A DNA stretch of 17,665 bases from Candidatus Undinarchaeota archaeon (lineage in GTDB: Archaea > Undinarchaeota > Undinarchaeia > Undinarchaeales > UBA543): contig CAZWSR010000013.1 of assembly GCA_964636545.1 (NCBI GenBank), positions 1 to 17,665 of the forward strand, given 5' to 3'. The translations under genes and the position numbers were made by a program. Below, piece after piece: positions 1 to 10,531 of the stretch. The notes below the pieces were generated by a model. That model was not told the DNA's origin. It did no database searches and was given only the letters and a program-made list of their open reading frames with translations. Every line of letters starts with the position of its first letter. Within the stretch, counting starts at the first letter, position 1.

Positions 1-748
<748 letters not shown>

Positions 749-1033: not shown

Positions 1034-1163
1034 TGGTGCGGGAGACAGGATTTGAACCTGCGAAGACACTAAGTCATTGGATTTCTTAATCATCGAGCAC
1101 TGAGCTCTCAGCACTCAAGATCACTCTTGAGTCCAACCCATTTGACCACTTTGGTACTCCCGC
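1034..1163 (-). tRNA. tRNA-Leu(CAA) with 43-nt intron at 37/38 (1083-1125); CCA encoded
   Basis: Acceptor GCGGGAG/CTCCCGC-ACCA; anticodon arm TTGGA-CT-CAA-G^A-TCCAA after intron removal; long variable arm; T-loop GGTTCAAATCC; 87 nt mature. Confidence 0.93.
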
Positions 1164-1968: not shown

Positions 1969-2039
1969 TACAAAAACTTTAAAAGGAACCAGTTTTAGAG
2001 AATTAAAAGCTGATAGCCGTTAGCTGACAGCTGAATATT

Positions 2040-5515: not shown

Positions 5516-7189
5516 ATGCAAGAATTAGATAAGATACTGAAGCCAGACAGTGTAGAATTTATGCAAGATTATATGAATGTTAGTGGAGAACTTGCAAGAA
5601 TTTTAATGGCAATTGGCTATCCAAGAGAAGTAAATGAAGGATTTATGGATAGAATAATCAGGAGCAGGGCTGCTTTTGACATTTCAATACACATAACTCC
5701 GTCTTCAATTGATTCAACAATTGTGAATTTAAATAAACTACTTAGGAAACTTAATGCTGACAAATATTCTGCAGAGAAAAAAGGAGTTTACACTCCATCA
5801 ATTGATTTACTAATGCAAGATACTAGAAAAGTTTTAGAAGAAATACAAGCAGGCAAGGAAAAAATATTCAAAACCAGTTTTTACATAAGTGCGAAAGCAT
5901 TTGACAAGAAAAATCTCGATACTTTGACAAGAAAAGCAGAATCAAAACTAAATTCAATAATGATAGTTCCAAAAAAACCAGTTTTCAGAATGCGAGAAGG
6001 TTTTCAAAGCATGCTTCCGCTAGCAGATGACTTACTAAAACAGCAAAGAACACTCACAACTTCTGCACTAAGTGCTTGTTTCCCATTTACTTCATCATTT
6101 CTTGAGACAGACAAAAATGGCGTAATGCTTGCAACTAACAAAAACAATGGAATACCGATTATCAGAGATGTTTTCAAGTTGACAAATCCGAATTCGTTGG
6201 TGTTGGGAACTTCTGGAGCGGGGAAAAGTTTTTGCTGTAAATTAATTTTCTTGCGATCATATATGGCAGGGGCTCGTGTTTTTGTTGTTGATCCGCAAGC
6301 AGAATATCTGGATTTAACAAGAGAACTAGAAGGACAAATTATTGAAATTTCAAAAGAGTCCAAGACAATAATTAATCCATTGGATTTGATGGAACAGGAT
6401 TTTGCCAGCAAGCGGTTGTCCTTGATGTCTGCTTACAAACTAATGTTTCCTGAAATGAGTACTCAGCAGTTGGCAGTTTTGGATAAAGCAACTGGAAAAG
6501 CATATGCAAACAAAGGAATTAATGAAAATAAAGAAACTTGGAAAAACCAAATGCCTGTGATGAAAGATGTTTTAAAAAATATTACAGAAAAAGAAATTGA
6601 AACTCAATTAGAACAATATGTGACTGGAGCATATTCATTTTTGAATAAACAAACAAAACTTGATTTAACTAGAGAATTCATTTGTTTTAATATTAAAGAA
6701 ATGCCAACTGCTGTTAAACCACTAATGTCTTATTTGATTTTGGAATATTTGCACTCCACAATGCAGAATGACCACAGGAGGAAGGTTCTTGCAATTGACG
6801 AAGCTTGGTCGCTATTAAGGCATGCAGGTTCTTCAGATTATTTATTCAAAATTGTCAAGACCTGCAGGAAATTCAATATGTCCTTATTTTTGATAACGCA
6901 AGAAGTTAATGACTTGATTGGAAAGGAAGCAGGTAAAGCAGTTCTCGCCAATACAAGTTGCAAATATTTGTTAAAACAGGACAGCAGTGTAATTGAGAAA
7001 CTTGCTGAAACAATGGGACTAACACACGAGGAAAAGGATATTTTAACAAGAAGCTCGGTTGGAGAAGGTTTGCTTGCAGTAGATGGAGAACGATTTCCAA
7101 TGAAAATAATTGCATCTGAGCAAGAAACTGACTTGATTACTACAAATGCAGATGAACTGAACAGGAGAAAAAATGAAAGACAAAATTGA
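5516..7189 (+). CDS. VirB4/TraC-like ATPase (FtsK-HerA superfamily)
   Basis: Walker A GTSGAGKS, VVDPQAEY, INPLD, Walker B IDEAW, RKFNMSLFLITQ, GEGLL. The N-terminal GYPREV...GF and DISIHI segments resemble conjugative VirB4. Confidence 0.85.
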   Translation: MQELDKILKPDSVEFMQDYMNVSGELARILMAIGYPREVNEGFMDRIIRSRAAFDISIHITPSSIDSTIVNLNKLLRKLNADKYSAEKKGVYTPSIDLLMQDTRKVLEEIQAGKEKIFKTSFYISAKAFDKKNLDTLTRKAESKLNSIMIVPKKPVFRMREGFQSMLPLADDLLKQQRTLTTSALSACFPFTSSFLETDKNGVMLATNKNNGIPIIRDVFKLTNPNSLVLGTSGAGKSFCCKLIFLRSYMAGARVFVVDPQAEYLDLTRELEGQIIEISKESKTIINPLDLMEQDFASKRLSLMSAYKLMFPEMSTQQLAVLDKATGKAYANKGINENKETWKNQMPVMKDVLKNITEKEIETQLEQYVTGAYSFLNKQTKLDLTREFICFNIKEMPTAVKPLMSYLILEYLHSTMQNDHRRKVLAIDEAWSLLRHAGSSDYLFKIVKTCRKFNMSLFLITQEVNDLIGKEAGKAVLANTSCKYLLKQDSSVIEKLAETMGLTHEEKDILTRSSVGEGLLAVDGERFPMKIIASEQETDLITTNADELNRRKNERQN

Positions 7190-7463
7190 TTTGAATTACG
7201 CAAAAGCAGTAGCAAGAGAAGTTTCAATGAGTTTTCCAAAAACAAAAGAAGAGCGGATTATTGTTATGCAGAAGATTGGGAAGGCGCTGCAGGATACACA
7301 TGGAAGTTTTTTTCTAGATCAGGTTTATGATGTTCTGGAATTGGTTTATGAAATTGAAGAACGGGATGAGTTAATGGATGAAATAGATGGTTGGGTTGAG
7401 AATGATGAGAAGATTGAGCAACTTGGTAATGAAAATAGAGTTTATACATATAGAATAGAATAA
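7173..7463 (+). CDS. Small acidic hypothetical protein, overlapping the virB4-like stop
   Basis: 96-aa ORF with AGGAG upstream, overlapping the previous gene by 17 nt; no recognised motif. Confidence 0.6.
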   Translation: MKDKIDLNYAKAVAREVSMSFPKTKEERIIVMQKIGKALQDTHGSFFLDQVYDVLELVYEIEERDELMDEIDGWVENDEKIEQLGNENRVYTYRIE

Positions 7464-7576
7464 TGGGCCCGCCGGAATTTGAATCCAGGACCTCACGCTC
7501 TCTCGAGCGCGTCCGTAGTTTTGTACGGAACGCAACCATATAAGGCGTGCGCACCACCAGACTATGCTACGGGCCC
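7464..7576 (-). tRNA. tRNA-Ile(TAT) with 39-nt intron at 37/38 (7500-7538)
   Basis: Acceptor GGGCCCG/CGGGCCC-A; D stem GCAT/GTGC; anticodon arm CACGC-CT-TAT-A^A-GCGTG; T arm CTGGA-TTCAAAT-TCCGG; intron hairpin TCCGTA/TACGGA; 74 nt mature without CCA. Confidence 0.92.
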
Positions 7577-10498
7577 AGTTTTATTAAATCCAATACTGAT
7601 TTTGATTCCTTCAAACTCCAGTTCAGATTTTTCTTTTGCTTTTGTCTCATCACCTACTTTTAATTCTTTTGCTCCGACTTTTTGAGTAATCTCTTTTGCA
7701 AACCGGTTAACTGCATTCTTTGCAAAGTCATCTGATGTTGAGACAATTAATTTAATTTGCTCGCCAACTTTAAGGCCAGCTTTCTTCCGCATTACTTGCA
7801 CTTGTCGCATTACTTCTCTTGATAGTGCTTCTTCCTTAATGTCTTGAGTCATTTTTGTGTCAAGATAGATTTTTCCAAATTCAAATTCTTTTTCAACACC
7901 TGCTAGTTTTCCTGAGTTCAATGATTTCACATTTGCTTGCTCTAAAATAACATTTTCAAATGTCTTGAGTGCTTTCTTTACCGTGTCGTCGCCATCCACA
8001 GCAAGCTGTTTAAGTGGCCAACGGAGTTTGATTTTTGCTTCTTCTCTTGCAAATCTAGCAGTTTCCACAATCATTCGCGCATTGCACATTTGCTTTTCAA
8101 ATTCTGGATTGACAAGTTTTGTATTTGGTTTTGGCCAGTCAAGCAAATGAATTGATTCTGGTAAACTTTTTGAAAGTGGTTTGATTATGTTGAGATAAAT
8201 TTCCTCAGACATCATTGGCAAAAGCGGTGCTGAAAGTACAAGGAAGGTTTTCAAAGATTCATAAAGAACCTTGAATGCAACAAGCTTGTCGGCGCCTGTT
8301 GCAGAAACCCAAGTTCTGTCTCTGATAAGTTTGACATACCAGCGTGACAAGTCCTCAACAAGGAATTCATGCAAAAGTTTTGGAACTTGAGGGAATTCAT
8401 AATCCTCAAATGCCTGTGTAAGCTTCTGGTTTAGTGAATTTACTCTTGAAAAAATCCATTTATCTTCTGGTTTTAGTTTTTTCAAGTCAAGTTTGTATTC
8501 TTCAGGATTAAATCCAGCTTCGTCCATGTATTTTGTGAATTTTGCAACATTCCAGAGAATATTAAGTGCTTTGTAAGACTCTTTTAGATTTTCCCAGTTG
8601 AAACGCATGTCCTCGCCATTAGCTGCCCCACCAATTGAGTAGAACCTCCAAGCTTCTGAGCCAACTTTTTCAATAACTTCTTCGGGTGCTGTAACATTTC
8701 CAAGTGATTTTGACATTTTCAAACCTTTATCATCAACAACAAAGCCGTGCATGTATACGCTTTTGTAAGAAGATTTTCCATGTGAAAGCATACTCAAACA
8801 CATAAGTGAATTAAACCATCCGCGAATCTGATCCTTGCCTTCTGTAATAAATTCACAAGGGAACCATTTGTCAAGCTCGGTTTTCTTTTCTGGGAACGGA
8901 AGTGTTGCCCATGGAGCTGCTCCAGAGTCGAGCCAGACATCAAGAATATCTGGAATTCGAGTCATTTCTTTTCCACAATCCTTGCATTTGAATTTGATTT
9001 TGTCAATCCATGGCCTGTGTAAATCTTTAACTTCTTTTGGAAGCTCGCTCCTACTCCCAATAACTTTCAAGTGACCATTTTCACAACGCCAAATCGGGAG
9101 AGGAATTCCCCAGAAACGCTGACGGGAAATACACCAATCCTGAAGATTTTCAAGCCAGTCTCGGAACCATCGTTCTCCAGCCCAGTCTGGAACCCACTTG
9201 ATTTTCTTGTTTTCCTCAATCATTTTTTCCTTGAGGTCAGTAACTTTAAGATACCAATTTGGAGCTGCTCTGAAAATAACAGGAGATTTGCAACGCCAGC
9301 AGTGTGCATACTCGTGGTCAATATCTGCTTCACGAGCTAGCAAACCTTTGTCTTTTACAAATCCAATGAATTTTTTATTGTCCTTGCTAGCGTTTAGGCC
9401 AGCGTATGGTCCAGCTTCTTCTGTGAAATTTCCACCTTCATCCACTAATGAAAATGCAGGAATATCCATTTTTCTGCCAACTTCAAAATCCTCAGCACCG
9501 CAACCAGGAGCACAATGAACACATCCAGAACCAGCTGAAAGAGTCACGAAACCGTGGAACATATCATCGCCAACTGGCTGAACAGTAAATGCATTTGGAT
9601 GTTTTTTCCTAATTTCTTTAAGTGCAGGAATGTCTTCTTCAAATGGTTGAATATATTCAAGTCCTTTCAAATCTTCTCCGCGAATTGTTTCAAGAAGTTC
9701 GTATTTTTGATCCATTATTCCAAGAAGCGCAATTACAAAGTTTTTTGCAAGAATCCATTTCTCTTTTCCAACTTTGATCTTAGCATATTCAAAATCAGGA
9801 TGAACCGCTACCATTTGATTAAATGGAAGTGTCCAAGGAGTTGTTGTCCAAATTAAGATGTATTCATCTTTCTTTCCCTTAAGTGGAAATTTGACATAAA
9901 TAGAAGTGTCTTTTCGGTTTTTGTATTCTAATTCGTGTTTTGCAAGAGCAGTTGCGCATCGCCAGCACCAAGTAATTGATTTTGGACCTTCGTAAAGTAG
10001 GCCTTTTTTGTGCGCTTCAGCAAGTGCCCACCAAGCACCTTCAATATAAGAATTATCAATTGTCCGGTATGGCTTTTCCCAATCCATCCAAACACCAAGT
10101 CGAGCGAACTGCTTATTCATTTGATCAAGATTATCAAGACCGAACTTTCTACACTCTTCAATAAACTTATCCATACCAATTTTTTCAAAAATCTCTTGTT
10201 TATTCTTGATTCCGAGCTTTTCCTCTACCTTTACTTCAATTGGAAGGCCGTGCATGTCGTATCCTGGCTGTGTGCGCACATTGTAGCCCTGCATACGCTT
10301 GTAACGCAGGAACATGTCTTTCATGACCTTGTTCCATGCAGTTCCGAGGTGGATTGAACCAGTTGTGTAAGGAGGACCATCAATAAATCGGAATCTATCT
10401 GCTTTTTCAGTTTTTTTCTTGCATTTAGCAAATGTTTTCTTAGAATCCCAGTGCTTCAGGATTTTTTCCTCGATTTTTTGTGGGTTGAATTTATCCAT
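7562..10498 (-). CDS. ileS: Isoleucine--tRNA ligase (archaeal/eukaryote-like type)
   Basis: DGPPYTTGSIHLGTA (HIGH), WTTTPWTLP, DWCISRQRFWGIPLP, EGKDQIRGWF, KMSKS. Confidence 0.97.
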   Translation of the reverse strand: MDKFNPQKIEEKILKHWDSKKTFAKCKKKTEKADRFRFIDGPPYTTGSIHLGTAWNKVMKDMFLRYKRMQGYNVRTQPGYDMHGLPIEVKVEEKLGIKNKQEIFEKIGMDKFIEECRKFGLDNLDQMNKQFARLGVWMDWEKPYRTIDNSYIEGAWWALAEAHKKGLLYEGPKSITWCWRCATALAKHELEYKNRKDTSIYVKFPLKGKKDEYILIWTTTPWTLPFNQMVAVHPDFEYAKIKVGKEKWILAKNFVIALLGIMDQKYELLETIRGEDLKGLEYIQPFEEDIPALKEIRKKHPNAFTVQPVGDDMFHGFVTLSAGSGCVHCAPGCGAEDFEVGRKMDIPAFSLVDEGGNFTEEAGPYAGLNASKDNKKFIGFVKDKGLLAREADIDHEYAHCWRCKSPVIFRAAPNWYLKVTDLKEKMIEENKKIKWVPDWAGERWFRDWLENLQDWCISRQRFWGIPLPIWRCENGHLKVIGSRSELPKEVKDLHRPWIDKIKFKCKDCGKEMTRIPDILDVWLDSGAAPWATLPFPEKKTELDKWFPCEFITEGKDQIRGWFNSLMCLSMLSHGKSSYKSVYMHGFVVDDKGLKMSKSLGNVTAPEEVIEKVGSEAWRFYSIGGAANGEDMRFNWENLKESYKALNILWNVAKFTKYMDEAGFNPEEYKLDLKKLKPEDKWIFSRVNSLNQKLTQAFEDYEFPQVPKLLHEFLVEDLSRWYVKLIRDRTWVSATGADKLVAFKVLYESLKTFLVLSAPLLPMMSEEIYLNIIKPLSKSLPESIHLLDWPKPNTKLVNPEFEKQMCNARMIVETARFAREEAKIKLRWPLKQLAVDGDDTVKKALKTFENVILEQANVKSLNSGKLAGVEKEFEFGKIYLDTKMTQDIKEEALSREVMRQVQVMRKKAGLKVGEQIKLIVSTSDDFAKNAVNRFAKEITQKVGAKELKVGDETKAKEKSELEFEGIKISIGFNKTGPVA

Positions 10499-10521: not shown

Positions 10522-10531
10522 TTTATATATA
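10522..10531 (-). promoter_or_regulatory. Candidate proximal TATA box of ileS
   Basis: GGGAAG-TATATATAAA ending 23 nt before the ileS ATG, the same spacing seen for other genes in this window. Confidence 0.5.

What the first reader, a model, noticed from the sequence alone, without database searches (positions are those of the whole stretch)
7562..7576. ileS stop codon lies inside its cognate tRNA gene (15-nt same-strand overlap)
Seen: ileS ends ...AAA ACT GGG CCC GTA GCA TAG (KTGPVA*), and GGGCCCGTAGCATAG is nt 1-15 of tRNA-Ile, so the stop is tRNA positions 13-15. Known: tRNA 5' ends are normally made by RNase P cleavage before G1. Inference: maturing this tRNA from a co-transcript would leave a non-stop ileS mRNA, making tRNA release and IleRS translation compete, which could be regulatory.
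Basis: partly seen in the sequence, partly recalled or inferred. Interest (0 to 1): 0.75.

Follow-up and report, generated by a model that had tools for sequence, protein, structure and literature searches.

The report
ileS stop codon inside tRNA-Ile gene
In a tiny marine archaeon the gene for isoleucyl-tRNA synthetase runs 15 bases into the gene for one of its own tRNAs, which looks like a by-product of extreme gene packing within a conserved synthetase-plus-tRNA unit, not a dedicated switch.

Summary
ileS (7562-10498, minus strand, 978 aa) ends at a TAG that is nucleotides 13-15 of an intron-bearing tRNA-Ile(UAU) gene (7464-7576, same strand). Contigs from two other studies bridge the junction without a difference.

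The genome is a DPANN archaeon (Undinarchaeota) with no TiaS found, so this tRNA is probably its AUA decoder.

The overlap itself is young and unstable. In the 13 genomes of the order, 10 have ileS followed by tRNA-Ile(UAU). Stop-to-tRNA distances are -15, -10, +3, +4, +4, +4, +10, +125, +177 and +181 nt. The two overlapping species lack 6-7 nt that the third congener has, including its TAA. They now stop at tRNA-internal TAGs in two different frames, so the added peptide is not conserved.

What is conserved is the tandem. It has no tRNA-type promoter of its own, and RNase P RNA is present.

Unexpectedly, argS and hisS sit beside their cognate tRNAs too, across the order.

Best reading: a co-transcribed synthetase-tRNA unit whose junction shrank until the tRNA's own TAG triplets became the stop. 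A regulatory competition remains possible but has no support. No RNA data were available.

The parts
7562..10498 (-). ileS, isoleucine--tRNA ligase, 978 aa, ATG at 10498, TAG stop at 7564-7562
   Evidence: ORF list; translation; TIGR00392 927.8 bits (cut-off 621.4); Pfam; 90% and 83% identical to the two congeners
7562..7576 (-). 15-nt overlap: last five ileS codons (GGG CCC GTA GCA TAG) = tRNA nucleotides 1-15; the stop is tRNA T13-A14-G15
   Evidence: identical in contigs from other studies
7464..7576 (-). tRNA-Ile(UAU) gene with intron, 113 nt, no encoded CCA, discriminator A at 7464
   Evidence: Rfam RF00005 49.8 bits, E 4.4e-10; ARAGORN -i; across 11 orthologues 231 of 231 stem cells are standard pairs and 11 of 21 pairs change on both sides
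7539..7576 (-). 5' exon (38 nt; one extra D-loop base), anticodon TAT at 7542-7540
7499..7538 (-). intron (39 nt) plus nucleotide 38, at the canonical 37/38 site; the exact splice points were not determined
   Evidence: 40-nt insertion in the Rfam alignment; ARAGORN i(40,39); orthologues carry introns of about 24-129 nt at the same place, all starting TGG
7464..7498 (-). 3' exon (35 nt: anticodon-stem 3' side, variable loop, T arm, acceptor 3' side, A73)
10522..10531 (-). candidate TATA box (TATATATAAA) 24-33 nt upstream of the ileS ATG; would give a leaderless or short-leader ileS-tRNA transcript (inference only)
   Evidence: sequence printed; no experimental support
7173..7463 (+). convergent 96-aa ORF of no known family whose TAA stop (7461-7463) abuts the tRNA 3' end with 0 nt between; the tRNA gene has no free flank on either side
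   Evidence: ORF list; sequence; no Pfam match; no homologue in the flanks of 12 relatives' loci

Best explanation
ileS and the intron-bearing tRNA-Ile(UAU) form one conserved, probably co-transcribed unit in this order of Undinarchaeota. The tRNA is released by RNase P (5'), a 3' nuclease and the splicing endonuclease, so tRNA excision also makes the 3' end of the ileS mRNA. Small deletions squeezed the junction to almost nothing. In the ancestor of this species and its closest relative, a 6-nt loss removed the TAA stop. Translation now runs into the tRNA and stops at TAG triplets supplied by conserved tRNA positions: T13-A14-G15 here, T8-A9-G10 in the sister species. The 5-residue tail (TGPVA) is a passenger. 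The overlap is a tolerated, near-neutral by-product of compaction, not a selected device. SHOWN: the overlap; both genes intact; structural conservation of the tRNA; the tandem in 10 of 13 genomes; the gap series; the 6-7-nt difference; no tRNA-type promoter; RNase P RNA and Pelota present. INFERRED: co-transcription; that RNase P makes the mRNA end; that full-length IleRS is released only from transcripts not yet cut; that the cost is small.
For: (1) Tandem conserved, overlap not. In the 13 genomes held for the order, tRNA-Ile(UAU) follows ileS on the same strand in 10. Stop-to-G1 distances are -15 (G000), -10 (G001), +3 (G002), +4 (G008, G005, G007), +10 (G010), +125 (G004, with a duplicated junction), +177 and +181 (G011, G003, with a small zinc-ribbon-like ORF between). 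(2) Origin. From the conserved TTT codon to G1 there are 9 nt in G000, 8 in G001 and 15 in G002, and G002's extra letters contain its TAA. IleRS identity to G000 is 90% (G001) and 83% (G002), so the loss is derived. (3) Only safe frames are seen. Reading into the tRNA from nucleotide 1 stops at 13-15 and from nucleotide 2 at 8-10. From nucleotide 3 the frame stays open for 67 codons. The two species occupy exactly the two short frames. (4) The same compaction occurs at a second synthetase-tRNA junction: argS stop to tRNA-Arg(CCU) is 0 nt (G005), 2 (G008), 10, 11 and 12 nt (G002, G000, G001). (5) No own promoter. A BRE/TATA-like consensus starts at -45 to -39 before 8 of 43 tRNAs with 2 or fewer mismatches (background 0.3% of random 55-nt windows). 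tRNA-Ile(UAU) has 7 mismatches, tied worst with the second tRNA of a tandem pair. Nothing inside ileS matches with 2 or fewer mismatches. (6) Machinery present: RNase P RNA at 138.7 bits; Pelota at 288.4 bits. (7) Both genes are functional: TIGR00392; tRNA stems 231 of 231 standard pairs, including a compensatory D-stem change unique to G000. (8) The flanks are not conserved: 0 of 12 relatives' loci share the downstream genes and 1 of 12 shares the upstream neighbour, yet the tandem persists.
Against: There are no RNA data (no listed run is on record as RNA), so co-transcription and the cleavage site are inferred. The overlapping state survived a speciation and a frame change, so it is at least not strongly harmful, and a benefit cannot be excluded. 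If RNase P cuts efficiently, cut transcripts are non-stop mRNAs. That should carry a cost, which sits uneasily with 'neutral' unless translation usually finishes first or cut mRNAs decay fast. Conserved linkage of three synthetases to their cognate tRNAs suggests that the arrangement as a whole is selected, so coupling between enzyme and tRNA expression may be functional even if the overlap is not. T5 and T6 runs inside ileS could end some transcripts early. The promoter consensus was derived by eye from this genome's own tRNAs and is rough.
Confidence: 0.65

Rival explanations
1. Regulatory coupling. Because the stop lies inside the tRNA, each co-transcript either is translated to the stop, with ribosomes unfolding tRNA nucleotides 1 to about 30, or folds and is cut by RNase P, which kills it as an mRNA. 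This sets a balance between IleRS synthesis and supply of the AUA-decoding tRNA. IleRS might also bind the tRNA moiety of its own mRNA.
For: Co-transcription is the better-supported view. The tRNA is probably the only AUA decoder: TiaS_FLD was not found in 13 of 13 genomes of the order, and AUA makes up 23.6% of Ile codons in 413 long ORFs. ileS itself nearly avoids AUA (2 of 59 Ile codons), so its translation would depend little on this tRNA. The overlapping state persists in two species. Synthetase-cognate tRNA tandems are conserved for Ile, Arg and His.
Against: The overlap is absent from 8 of the 10 tandems in the order. Its position, frame and tail differ between the two species that have it. 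A ribosome at a stop codon 0-4 nt before G1 would cover the tRNA 5' part just as well, so the steric competition does not need the overlap. AUA avoidance is also expected in any highly expressed gene. No expression data exist.
Confidence: 0.15
2. Independent transcription. The tRNA has its own, atypical promoter inside the ileS 3' coding region, or a long-leader one further upstream. Most ileS transcripts and tRNA transcripts are then separate molecules, and the overlap has no consequence beyond five extra residues.
For: An A/T-rich box (TTTAATAAAA and the like) lies 3-12 nt before G1 in all 10 tandems. Weak consensus matches (3 mismatches) occur at -380, -805 and -1201. Archaeal promoters can lie inside upstream genes (general knowledge).
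Against: The A/T box is too close to G1 for an archaeal TATA box, which is expected near -26 (general knowledge, recalled), and in most genomes it contains the stop codon itself. Matches with 3 mismatches occur in about 3% of random windows. ileS transcripts would still have to read through the tRNA, because no T5 run intervenes.
Confidence: 0.12
3. Artefact. An assembly or consensus error removed an upstream stop, or one of the two genes is a decaying pseudogene.
For: The genome is a 39-contig metagenome bin, 82.8% complete.
Against: Identical junction in contigs of runs from other studies. The full-length IleRS scores well above its family cut-off. tRNA structure is fully kept, with a compensatory change. 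The sister species has the same kind of overlap in an independent assembly.
Confidence: 0.02

Closest known systems
tRNA punctuation of animal mitochondrial transcripts (recalled, not read here; hits for mitochondrial CDS/tRNA overlaps were seen only as listings)
   Same: A protein gene abuts or overlaps a same-strand tRNA gene. Excision of the tRNA by RNase P and a 3' nuclease would define the mRNA end. The arrangement is driven by extreme compaction.
   Different: This is an archaeal chromosome in which only some genes are arranged this way. The stop is complete and lies inside the tRNA, not an incomplete stop finished by polyadenylation. The tRNA is the cognate of the enzyme encoded upstream and carries an intron.
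TiaS-independent AUA decoding by tRNA-Ile(UAU) in DPANN and other archaea: ARMAN lineages (PMC3239211, passages read); Nanoarchaeum and Korarchaeum (cited in PMC3575796, passages read)
   Same: UAU anticodon. Intron at 37/38, as in the ARMAN-2 pre-tRNA-Ile(UAU) used in that paper. No TiaS homologue found.
   Different: Those passages say nothing about linkage to ileS or overlap with it. Here the tRNA sits directly behind ileS in 10 of 13 genomes of the order, and near ileS in 2 of 12 other TiaS-less genomes examined.
pylS-pylT cassette (recalled)
   Same: A synthetase gene and its cognate tRNA gene are kept adjacent and inherited together.
   Different: That is a dedicated orthogonal pair for a 21st/22nd amino acid. 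No overlap is known to me. Here the pairs are ordinary housekeeping ones (Ile, Arg, His).
Short same-strand gene overlaps in compact prokaryotic genomes (general knowledge)
   Same: Loss of a stop by a small deletion, with the next in-frame stop inside the downstream gene taking over. The result is lineage-specific and variable.
   Different: The downstream gene is a structured RNA whose 5' end must be cut free, so processing removes the stop codon from the mRNA.
Translational autoregulation of E. coli thrS through a tRNA-like operator (recalled)
   Same: This applies only to the novel reading: a synthetase could bind a tRNA-shaped part of its own mRNA.
   Different: That operator is a 5' mimic near the ribosome-binding site. 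Here it would be a genuine tRNA at the 3' end. Nothing here tests binding.

Membership tests
tRNA (Rfam RF00005) | Cloverleaf sequence and structure scoring above the family's gathering threshold | tested here: met
   49.8 bits against 29, full model 1-71. Found only when the region was searched alone; missed in the whole-window run.
tRNA (Rfam RF00005) | Stems maintained by compensatory change among orthologues | tested here: met
   11 sequences x 21 pairs: 231 of 231 standard pairs, and 11 pairs change on both sides. Caveat: the sequences were found by a scanner that required perfect anticodon and T stems and at most 1 acceptor mismatch, so 'all paired' is partly built in. The both-side changes are not.
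tRNA-Ile(UAU), AUA decoder of TiaS-less archaea | Anticodon UAU in an otherwise Ile-type tRNA | tested here: met
   Loop CUUAUA; ARAGORN Ile(tat).
tRNA-Ile(UAU), AUA decoder of TiaS-less archaea | No TiaS (agmatidine synthetase) in the genome | tested here: met
   PF08489 not found in G000 (82.8% complete) while 4 of 4 archaeal controls were positive. Found in 0 of 13 genomes of the order and 1 of 17 of the phylum. Incomplete genomes, so 'not found' and not 'absent'.
tRNA-Ile(UAU), AUA decoder of TiaS-less archaea | No tRNA-Ile2(CAU) | tested here: inconclusive
   ARAGORN finds one CAT-anticodon tRNA in the bin. Met and Ile2 identity was not distinguished, and the tRNA set is incomplete.
tRNA-Ile(UAU), AUA decoder of TiaS-less archaea | Charged with isoleucine by IleRS and reads AUA | not testable with these tools
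   Needs aminoacylation and decoding assays.
Isoleucine--tRNA ligase | Equivalog-level family match over the whole catalytic and anticodon-binding body | tested here: met
   TIGR00392 927.8 bits (cut-off 621.4), residues 3-841. Pfam Anticodon_1 at 679-830 and DUF5915 at 877-970.
tRNA-punctuated (co-transcribed and RNase P-processed) mRNA-tRNA unit | One transcript spans the CDS and the tRNA | not testable with these tools
   No RNA run listed. Indirect support only: no tRNA-type promoter and no T5 run between the genes.
tRNA-punctuated (co-transcribed and RNase P-processed) mRNA-tRNA unit | RNase P available to cut at the tRNA 5' end | tested here: met
   RF00373 138.7 bits (gathering 84) at G000:C17:2830-3167. 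Protein subunits were not searched.
Conserved regulatory overlap | Overlap length, frame or encoded tail conserved among relatives | tested here: not met
   2 of the 10 tandems overlap, by 15 and 10 nt, in different frames, with tails TGPVA and LGP.

The most novel reading that the evidence does not exclude
In this order of Undinarchaeota the synthetases for Ile, Arg and His are expressed as single transcripts with their cognate tRNAs. RNase P cleavage at the tRNA 5' end then serves as the mRNA 3'-end-forming step, an archaeal counterpart of mitochondrial tRNA punctuation. Where the stop has slid into the tRNA (this species and its sister), a transcript can release finished IleRS only before the tRNA is excised. 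The production of IleRS and of the sole AUA-decoding tRNA are then kinetically coupled, possibly reinforced by IleRS binding the tRNA moiety of its own mRNA.
Probability: 0.12. Interest if true: 0.8.

Novelty: new variant of a known kind. Interest (0 to 1): 0.5.

Why it matters
The overlap by itself is a curiosity. It shows how far a compact archaeal genome can shrink a junction, and that conserved tRNA positions (T8-A9-G10 and T13-A14-G15) act as ready-made stop codons in two of the three frames.

The context matters more. Three housekeeping synthetases (Ile, Arg, His) are kept next to their cognate tRNAs across a whole order while the surrounding genes are reshuffled. My literature searches and the main text of the paper describing Undinarchaeota do not mention such linkage. 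The supplements were closed, and the library is incomplete.

If these are real co-transcripts, they would be a natural archaeal system in which tRNA processing defines mRNA 3' ends within 0-12 nt of the stop codon, and in two species upstream of it. That would make the order of termination, RNase P cleavage and non-stop rescue directly testable.

There is also a practical point. Intron-bearing tRNAs are missed by default scans, so such overlaps will usually go unannotated.

Tried and rejected
Expression data: the look-up of sequencing runs listed 20 runs from 16 studies, with no RNA holder listed. Nothing can be said on transcription, in either direction.

The sigma-70 promoter and terminator scanner was not used, because it does not apply to archaea. 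I derived a rough BRE/TATA-like consensus from this genome's tRNA upstream regions instead.

Plain minimum-free-energy folding of the 113-nt precursor (-51.9 kcal/mol, z -3.96) gave the acceptor and T arms but not a clean cloverleaf or a bulge-helix-bulge. I did not determine the splice motif.

DNA BLAST of the tRNA against the three genomes of the family that lacks the tandem (G006, G009, G012) found nothing at E <= 0.1. Their tRNA-Ile(UAU) is either unassembled or too diverged, so that question is unresolved.

ARAGORN mistypes several intron-bearing orthologues as Ser, Val, His or Gly and missed the two-intron tRNA of G028. I relied on my own pattern scanner and on Rfam. Negative ARAGORN results for distant genomes may therefore hide tRNAs.

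Ideas rejected: an alternative genetic code (not needed, since TAG is used as a stop in 75 of 413 long ORFs); a leaderless tRNA without RNase P, as in Nanoarchaeum (recalled), because RNase P RNA is present.

Literature: seven searches gave no paper describing a prokaryotic CDS stop inside a cognate tRNA or synthetase-cognate tRNA tandems in archaea. I saw only listings for most hits. I read passages of PMC3239211, PMC3575796 and PMC7414124, and the abstract and outline of PMC13752280. Supplementary tRNA tables of PMC7414124 could bear on this but were closed.

Full report
**What is there**

The window is contig C13 of an 840,427-base, 39-contig archaeal genome bin, 82.8% complete. It carries an archaeal SSU rRNA gene at its left end. 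Close relatives' public records are titled 'archaeon UBA543' and 'Candidatus Undinarchaeota archaeon'. The stretch occurs in seawater, marine and hydrothermal-vent metagenomes. The genome has 37.2% G+C.

On the minus strand, an ORF runs from ATG at 10498 to TAG at 7564-7562 (978 aa). It is isoleucine--tRNA ligase: TIGR00392 scores 927.8 bits against a cut-off of 621.4. Its C-terminal DUF5915 domain match reaches residue 970.

Directly behind it, on the same strand, lies a tRNA gene at 7464-7576.
- Rfam RF00005 gives 49.8 bits, E 4.4e-10, with anticodon loop CUUAUA and a 40-nt insertion after it.
- The default ARAGORN scan and the whole-window Rfam run both missed it.

The last five ileS codons (GGG CCC GTA GCA TAG) are tRNA nucleotides 1-15.

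**Not an artefact**

Logan contigs from runs of other studies reproduce the junction with no differing letter and no gap.
- X8 record 19 (7385-7689) and X7 record 17 (7546-7714) bridge the ileS/tRNA boundary by the tool's 31-letter rule.
- X5 record 5 (7548-8200) covers the 15 overlapping bases but has only 29 letters on the tRNA side.
- The same runs hold a second, related version. In it, 59 letters at 7581-7641 are replaced by 65, and the downstream loose end matches the congener G002. This fits G002's junction being 6 nt longer.

These are contigs, not reads, so minority variants are not excluded.

**Both genes look functional**

IleRS is full length and 90% and 83% identical to its two congeners.

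For the tRNA and ten orthologues, all 231 stem cells (21 pairs x 11 sequences) are standard pairs, and 11 pairs show changes on both sides. One is a D-stem swap (T-A to A-T) unique to this genome. My scanner demanded paired stems, so the 100% figure is partly built in. The compensatory changes are not.

TiaS (PF08489) was not found in this genome, while 4 of 4 archaeal controls were positive. It was found in none of the 13 genomes of the order and in 1 of 17 of the phylum. AUA is 18.4 per 1000 codons, or 23.6% of Ile codons, in 413 ORFs of at least 250 aa. The tRNA is therefore most likely the essential AUA decoder, as described for ARMAN archaea, which also have an intron at 37/38 and lack TiaS (PMC3239211, passages; see also PMC3575796).

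**Comparative anatomy of the junction**

The order holds 13 species genomes in the collection and the phylum 17. tRNA-Ile(UAU), always with an intron at the same site (about 24-129 nt), follows ileS on the same strand in 10 of the 13.

| Genome | Stop-to-G1 distance | Note |
|---|---|---|
| G000 (this one) | -15 nt | overlap |
| G001 (same genus) | -10 nt | overlap |
| G002 (same genus) | +3 nt | |
| G008, G005, G007 | +4 nt | |
| G010 | +10 nt | |
| G004 | +125 nt | the junction is duplicated as a 25-nt direct repeat spaced 119 nt |
| G011, G003 | +177, +181 nt | a small Cys-rich ORF lies between, and its own stop is 1-3 nt before G1 |

The three genomes of one family have no such tRNA within 1.5 kb and gave no BLAST match.

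The flanks of the tandem are not conserved. Among 12 relatives' loci, 0 share the downstream genes and 1 shares the upstream neighbour. The pairing itself is therefore what is retained.

Outside the order, the tRNA lies 55 nt behind ileS in G028 (Rfam 43.8 bits, two insertions) and about 180-200 nt ahead of it in G037. Both lack TiaS. Ten other TiaS-less genomes examined show none by ARAGORN and, for four of them, also by my scanner. The 11 TiaS-positive genomes with loci show none either.

**How the overlap arose**

From the conserved TTT (Phe) codon near the C-terminus to G1 there are 15 nt in G002, 9 in G000 and 8 in G001. The letters missing from the latter two include G002's TAA. G000 and G001 are the closest pair. 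The simplest history is a 6-nt loss in their common ancestor, followed by a 1-nt change in one of them.

G000 now stops at T13-A14-G15 (tail TGPVA). G001 stops in another frame at T8-A9-G10 (tail LGP).

Reading into the tRNA, two frames stop at once at nucleotides 8-10 and 13-15. The third stays open for 67 codons. Only the two short frames are observed. The tail is thus dictated by the tRNA sequence and is not conserved as protein. After the conserved F-x-K/R motif, other order members have 1-3 residues; G000 has 5 and G001 has 3.

**Expression logic (inferred)**

- Many stand-alone tRNAs here carry a BRE/TATA-like box that starts 39-45 nt upstream. It matches with 2 or fewer mismatches in 8 of 43 tRNAs, against 0.3% of random windows.
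- tRNA-Ile(UAU) has the joint-worst match (7 mismatches), equal to the second gene of a tRNA tandem.
- Inside ileS nothing matches with 2 or fewer mismatches. No run of five T lies between ileS and the tRNA; the first one after the tRNA is at 7242.
- A TATA-like box sits 24-33 nt before the ileS ATG.
- RNase P RNA is present (138.7 bits).

The most economical reading is one ileS-tRNA transcript from which RNase P frees the tRNA. In this species, that cut removes the stop codon from the mRNA. Pelota, the archaeal factor for ribosomes stalled on stop-less mRNA (function recalled), is encoded (288.4 bits).

A ribosome terminating 0-4 nt before G1 would also cover the tRNA's 5' part. Steric competition between translation and tRNA folding would therefore exist in all the tight junctions. 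The overlap adds only the non-stop consequence.

**A wider pattern**

Of 43 predicted tRNAs, this is the only one overlapped by an upstream same-strand ORF of at least 100 aa. The next tightest case is tRNA-Arg(CCU), 11 nt behind a 581-aa ORF. That ORF is arginyl-tRNA synthetase (Pfam tRNA-synt_1d 3.5e-61, DALR_1, Arg_tRNA_synt_N).

All four tRNA-Arg genes found in the genome (UCU with a 139-nt intron, UCG, CCU, GCG) lie within 1.2 kb of argS. tRNA-His(GUG) lies about 47 nt ahead of hisS.

Across the order:

| Linkage | In the order | Outside the order |
|---|---|---|
| argS with tRNA-Arg | 12 of 12 genomes with argS have at least one tRNA-Arg within 900 nt; 11 of 12 within 320 nt | 1 of 18 loci within 320 nt |
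| tRNA-His ahead of hisS (29-129 nt) | 11 of 13; the other two genes sit at contig ends | 1 of 17 loci |

The argS stop to tRNA-Arg(CCU) distance is 0, 2, 10, 11 and 12 nt in five genomes.

As a rough estimate of my own, random placement would put about 0.03 tRNAs within 200 nt of their cognate synthetase gene in this genome. Five are observed.

Non-cognate neighbours also exist: tRNA-Trp before leuS, and ProRS near tRNA-Ala.

**Verdict**

The overlap is best explained as the extreme end of junction shrinkage inside a conserved, probably co-transcribed synthetase-tRNA unit, with tRNA-internal TAGs acting as fallback stops (confidence 0.65). A regulatory competition is logically possible but is not supported by conservation (0.15). 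An independent internal promoter cannot be excluded (0.12). An artefact is very unlikely (0.02).

I found no description of such an overlap or of the synthetase-tRNA tandems in archaea in the searches listed under Tried and rejected. The nearest known analogue is mitochondrial tRNA punctuation (recalled). The IleRS C-terminal domains are tRNA-recognition modules that are evolutionarily plastic (abstract of PMC13752280). That fits a few extra residues being tolerated, but this was not tested.

Noticed in passing
G000:C1:98420-101622 (locus L073): An arginine cluster: tRNA-Arg(UCU, 139-nt intron), tRNA-Arg(UCG), argS (581 aa), tRNA-Arg(CCU) 11 nt after the argS stop, and tRNA-Arg(GCG) on the other strand. 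These are all four tRNA-Arg genes found in the bin. The arrangement is conserved in the order, with argS-to-tRNA gaps down to 0-2 nt.
   Followed up: partly
G000:C1:87120-88559 (locus L125): tRNA-His(GUG) lies about 47 nt upstream of hisS on the same strand. tRNA-His precedes hisS in 11 of 13 genomes of the order, against 1 of 17 loci outside it.
   Followed up: partly
window 2022-2033, and G000:C1 near 88456-88481, 93228-93246, 98636-98686; C5 3363: Heptad repeats of the type CAGCTNN/AGCTGNN flank tRNA genes (His, Pro, Arg x2, Val, Glu). 9 of 22 pattern hits lie within 120 nt of a tRNA, although such zones make up about 1.6% of the genome, and all 9 hits with a 2-nt spacer are next to tRNAs. 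The repeats are absent next to tRNA-Ile(UAU). Function unknown; a processing, termination or protein-binding signal is possible.
   Followed up: partly
L004:1362-1505 (genome G004): The ileS-end/tRNA-start junction is duplicated as a perfect 25-nt direct repeat spaced 119 nt. The repeat holds the last ileS codons, the spacer and the first 8 tRNA bases, and it brackets a more G+C-rich 94-nt insert. This looks like a target-site duplication or the att remnant of an element that integrated at the tRNA 5' end.
   Followed up: partly
L005 and L006 (G011, G003); L015, L018, L021 (G012, G009, G006): A small Cys-rich (zinc-ribbon-like) ORF of about 55-60 aa follows ileS. In G011 and G003 it lies between ileS and tRNA-Ile(UAU) and stops 1-3 nt before G1. 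It may represent the ancestral gene order. Homology between the versions was not tested.
   Followed up: no
window 7562-10498: ileS uses AUA for only 2 of 59 Ile codons (3.4%), against 23.6% in 413 long ORFs of the genome. This could be ordinary codon bias of a highly expressed gene. It could also make IleRS synthesis independent of the tRNA encoded behind it.
   Followed up: no
window about 239-294 (minus strand): The SSU rRNA gene has a 56-nt insertion where the Rfam model has 3 positions, between CAGCC and GCGGUAA. From recall, that is inside the site of the common 515F primer. It may be an rRNA intron or insertion and could hide this lineage from amplicon surveys.
   Followed up: no
window 1037-1163 (minus strand): A second intron-bearing tRNA, tRNA-Leu(CAA) with a roughly 43-46-nt intron, lies between the SSU rRNA gene and a CDP-alcohol phosphatidyltransferase gene. 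The default ARAGORN scan missed it.
   Followed up: no
window 7461-7464: The convergent 96-aa ORF (7173-7463, no family match) ends with TAA directly against the tRNA's discriminator base. The tRNA gene therefore has zero free bases on either side, and its 3' trailer is antisense to that ORF.
   Followed up: no
G000:C7:36808-37846; C15:5967-7082; C1:16758-18184: tRNA-modification genes sit next to tRNA genes. Dus lies 42 nt before tRNA-Thr(GGU). The longest ORF of Kae1/TsaD runs over tRNA-Gly(UCC). A MiaB-like radical-SAM/TRAM gene lies 139 nt from tRNA-Phe.
   Followed up: no
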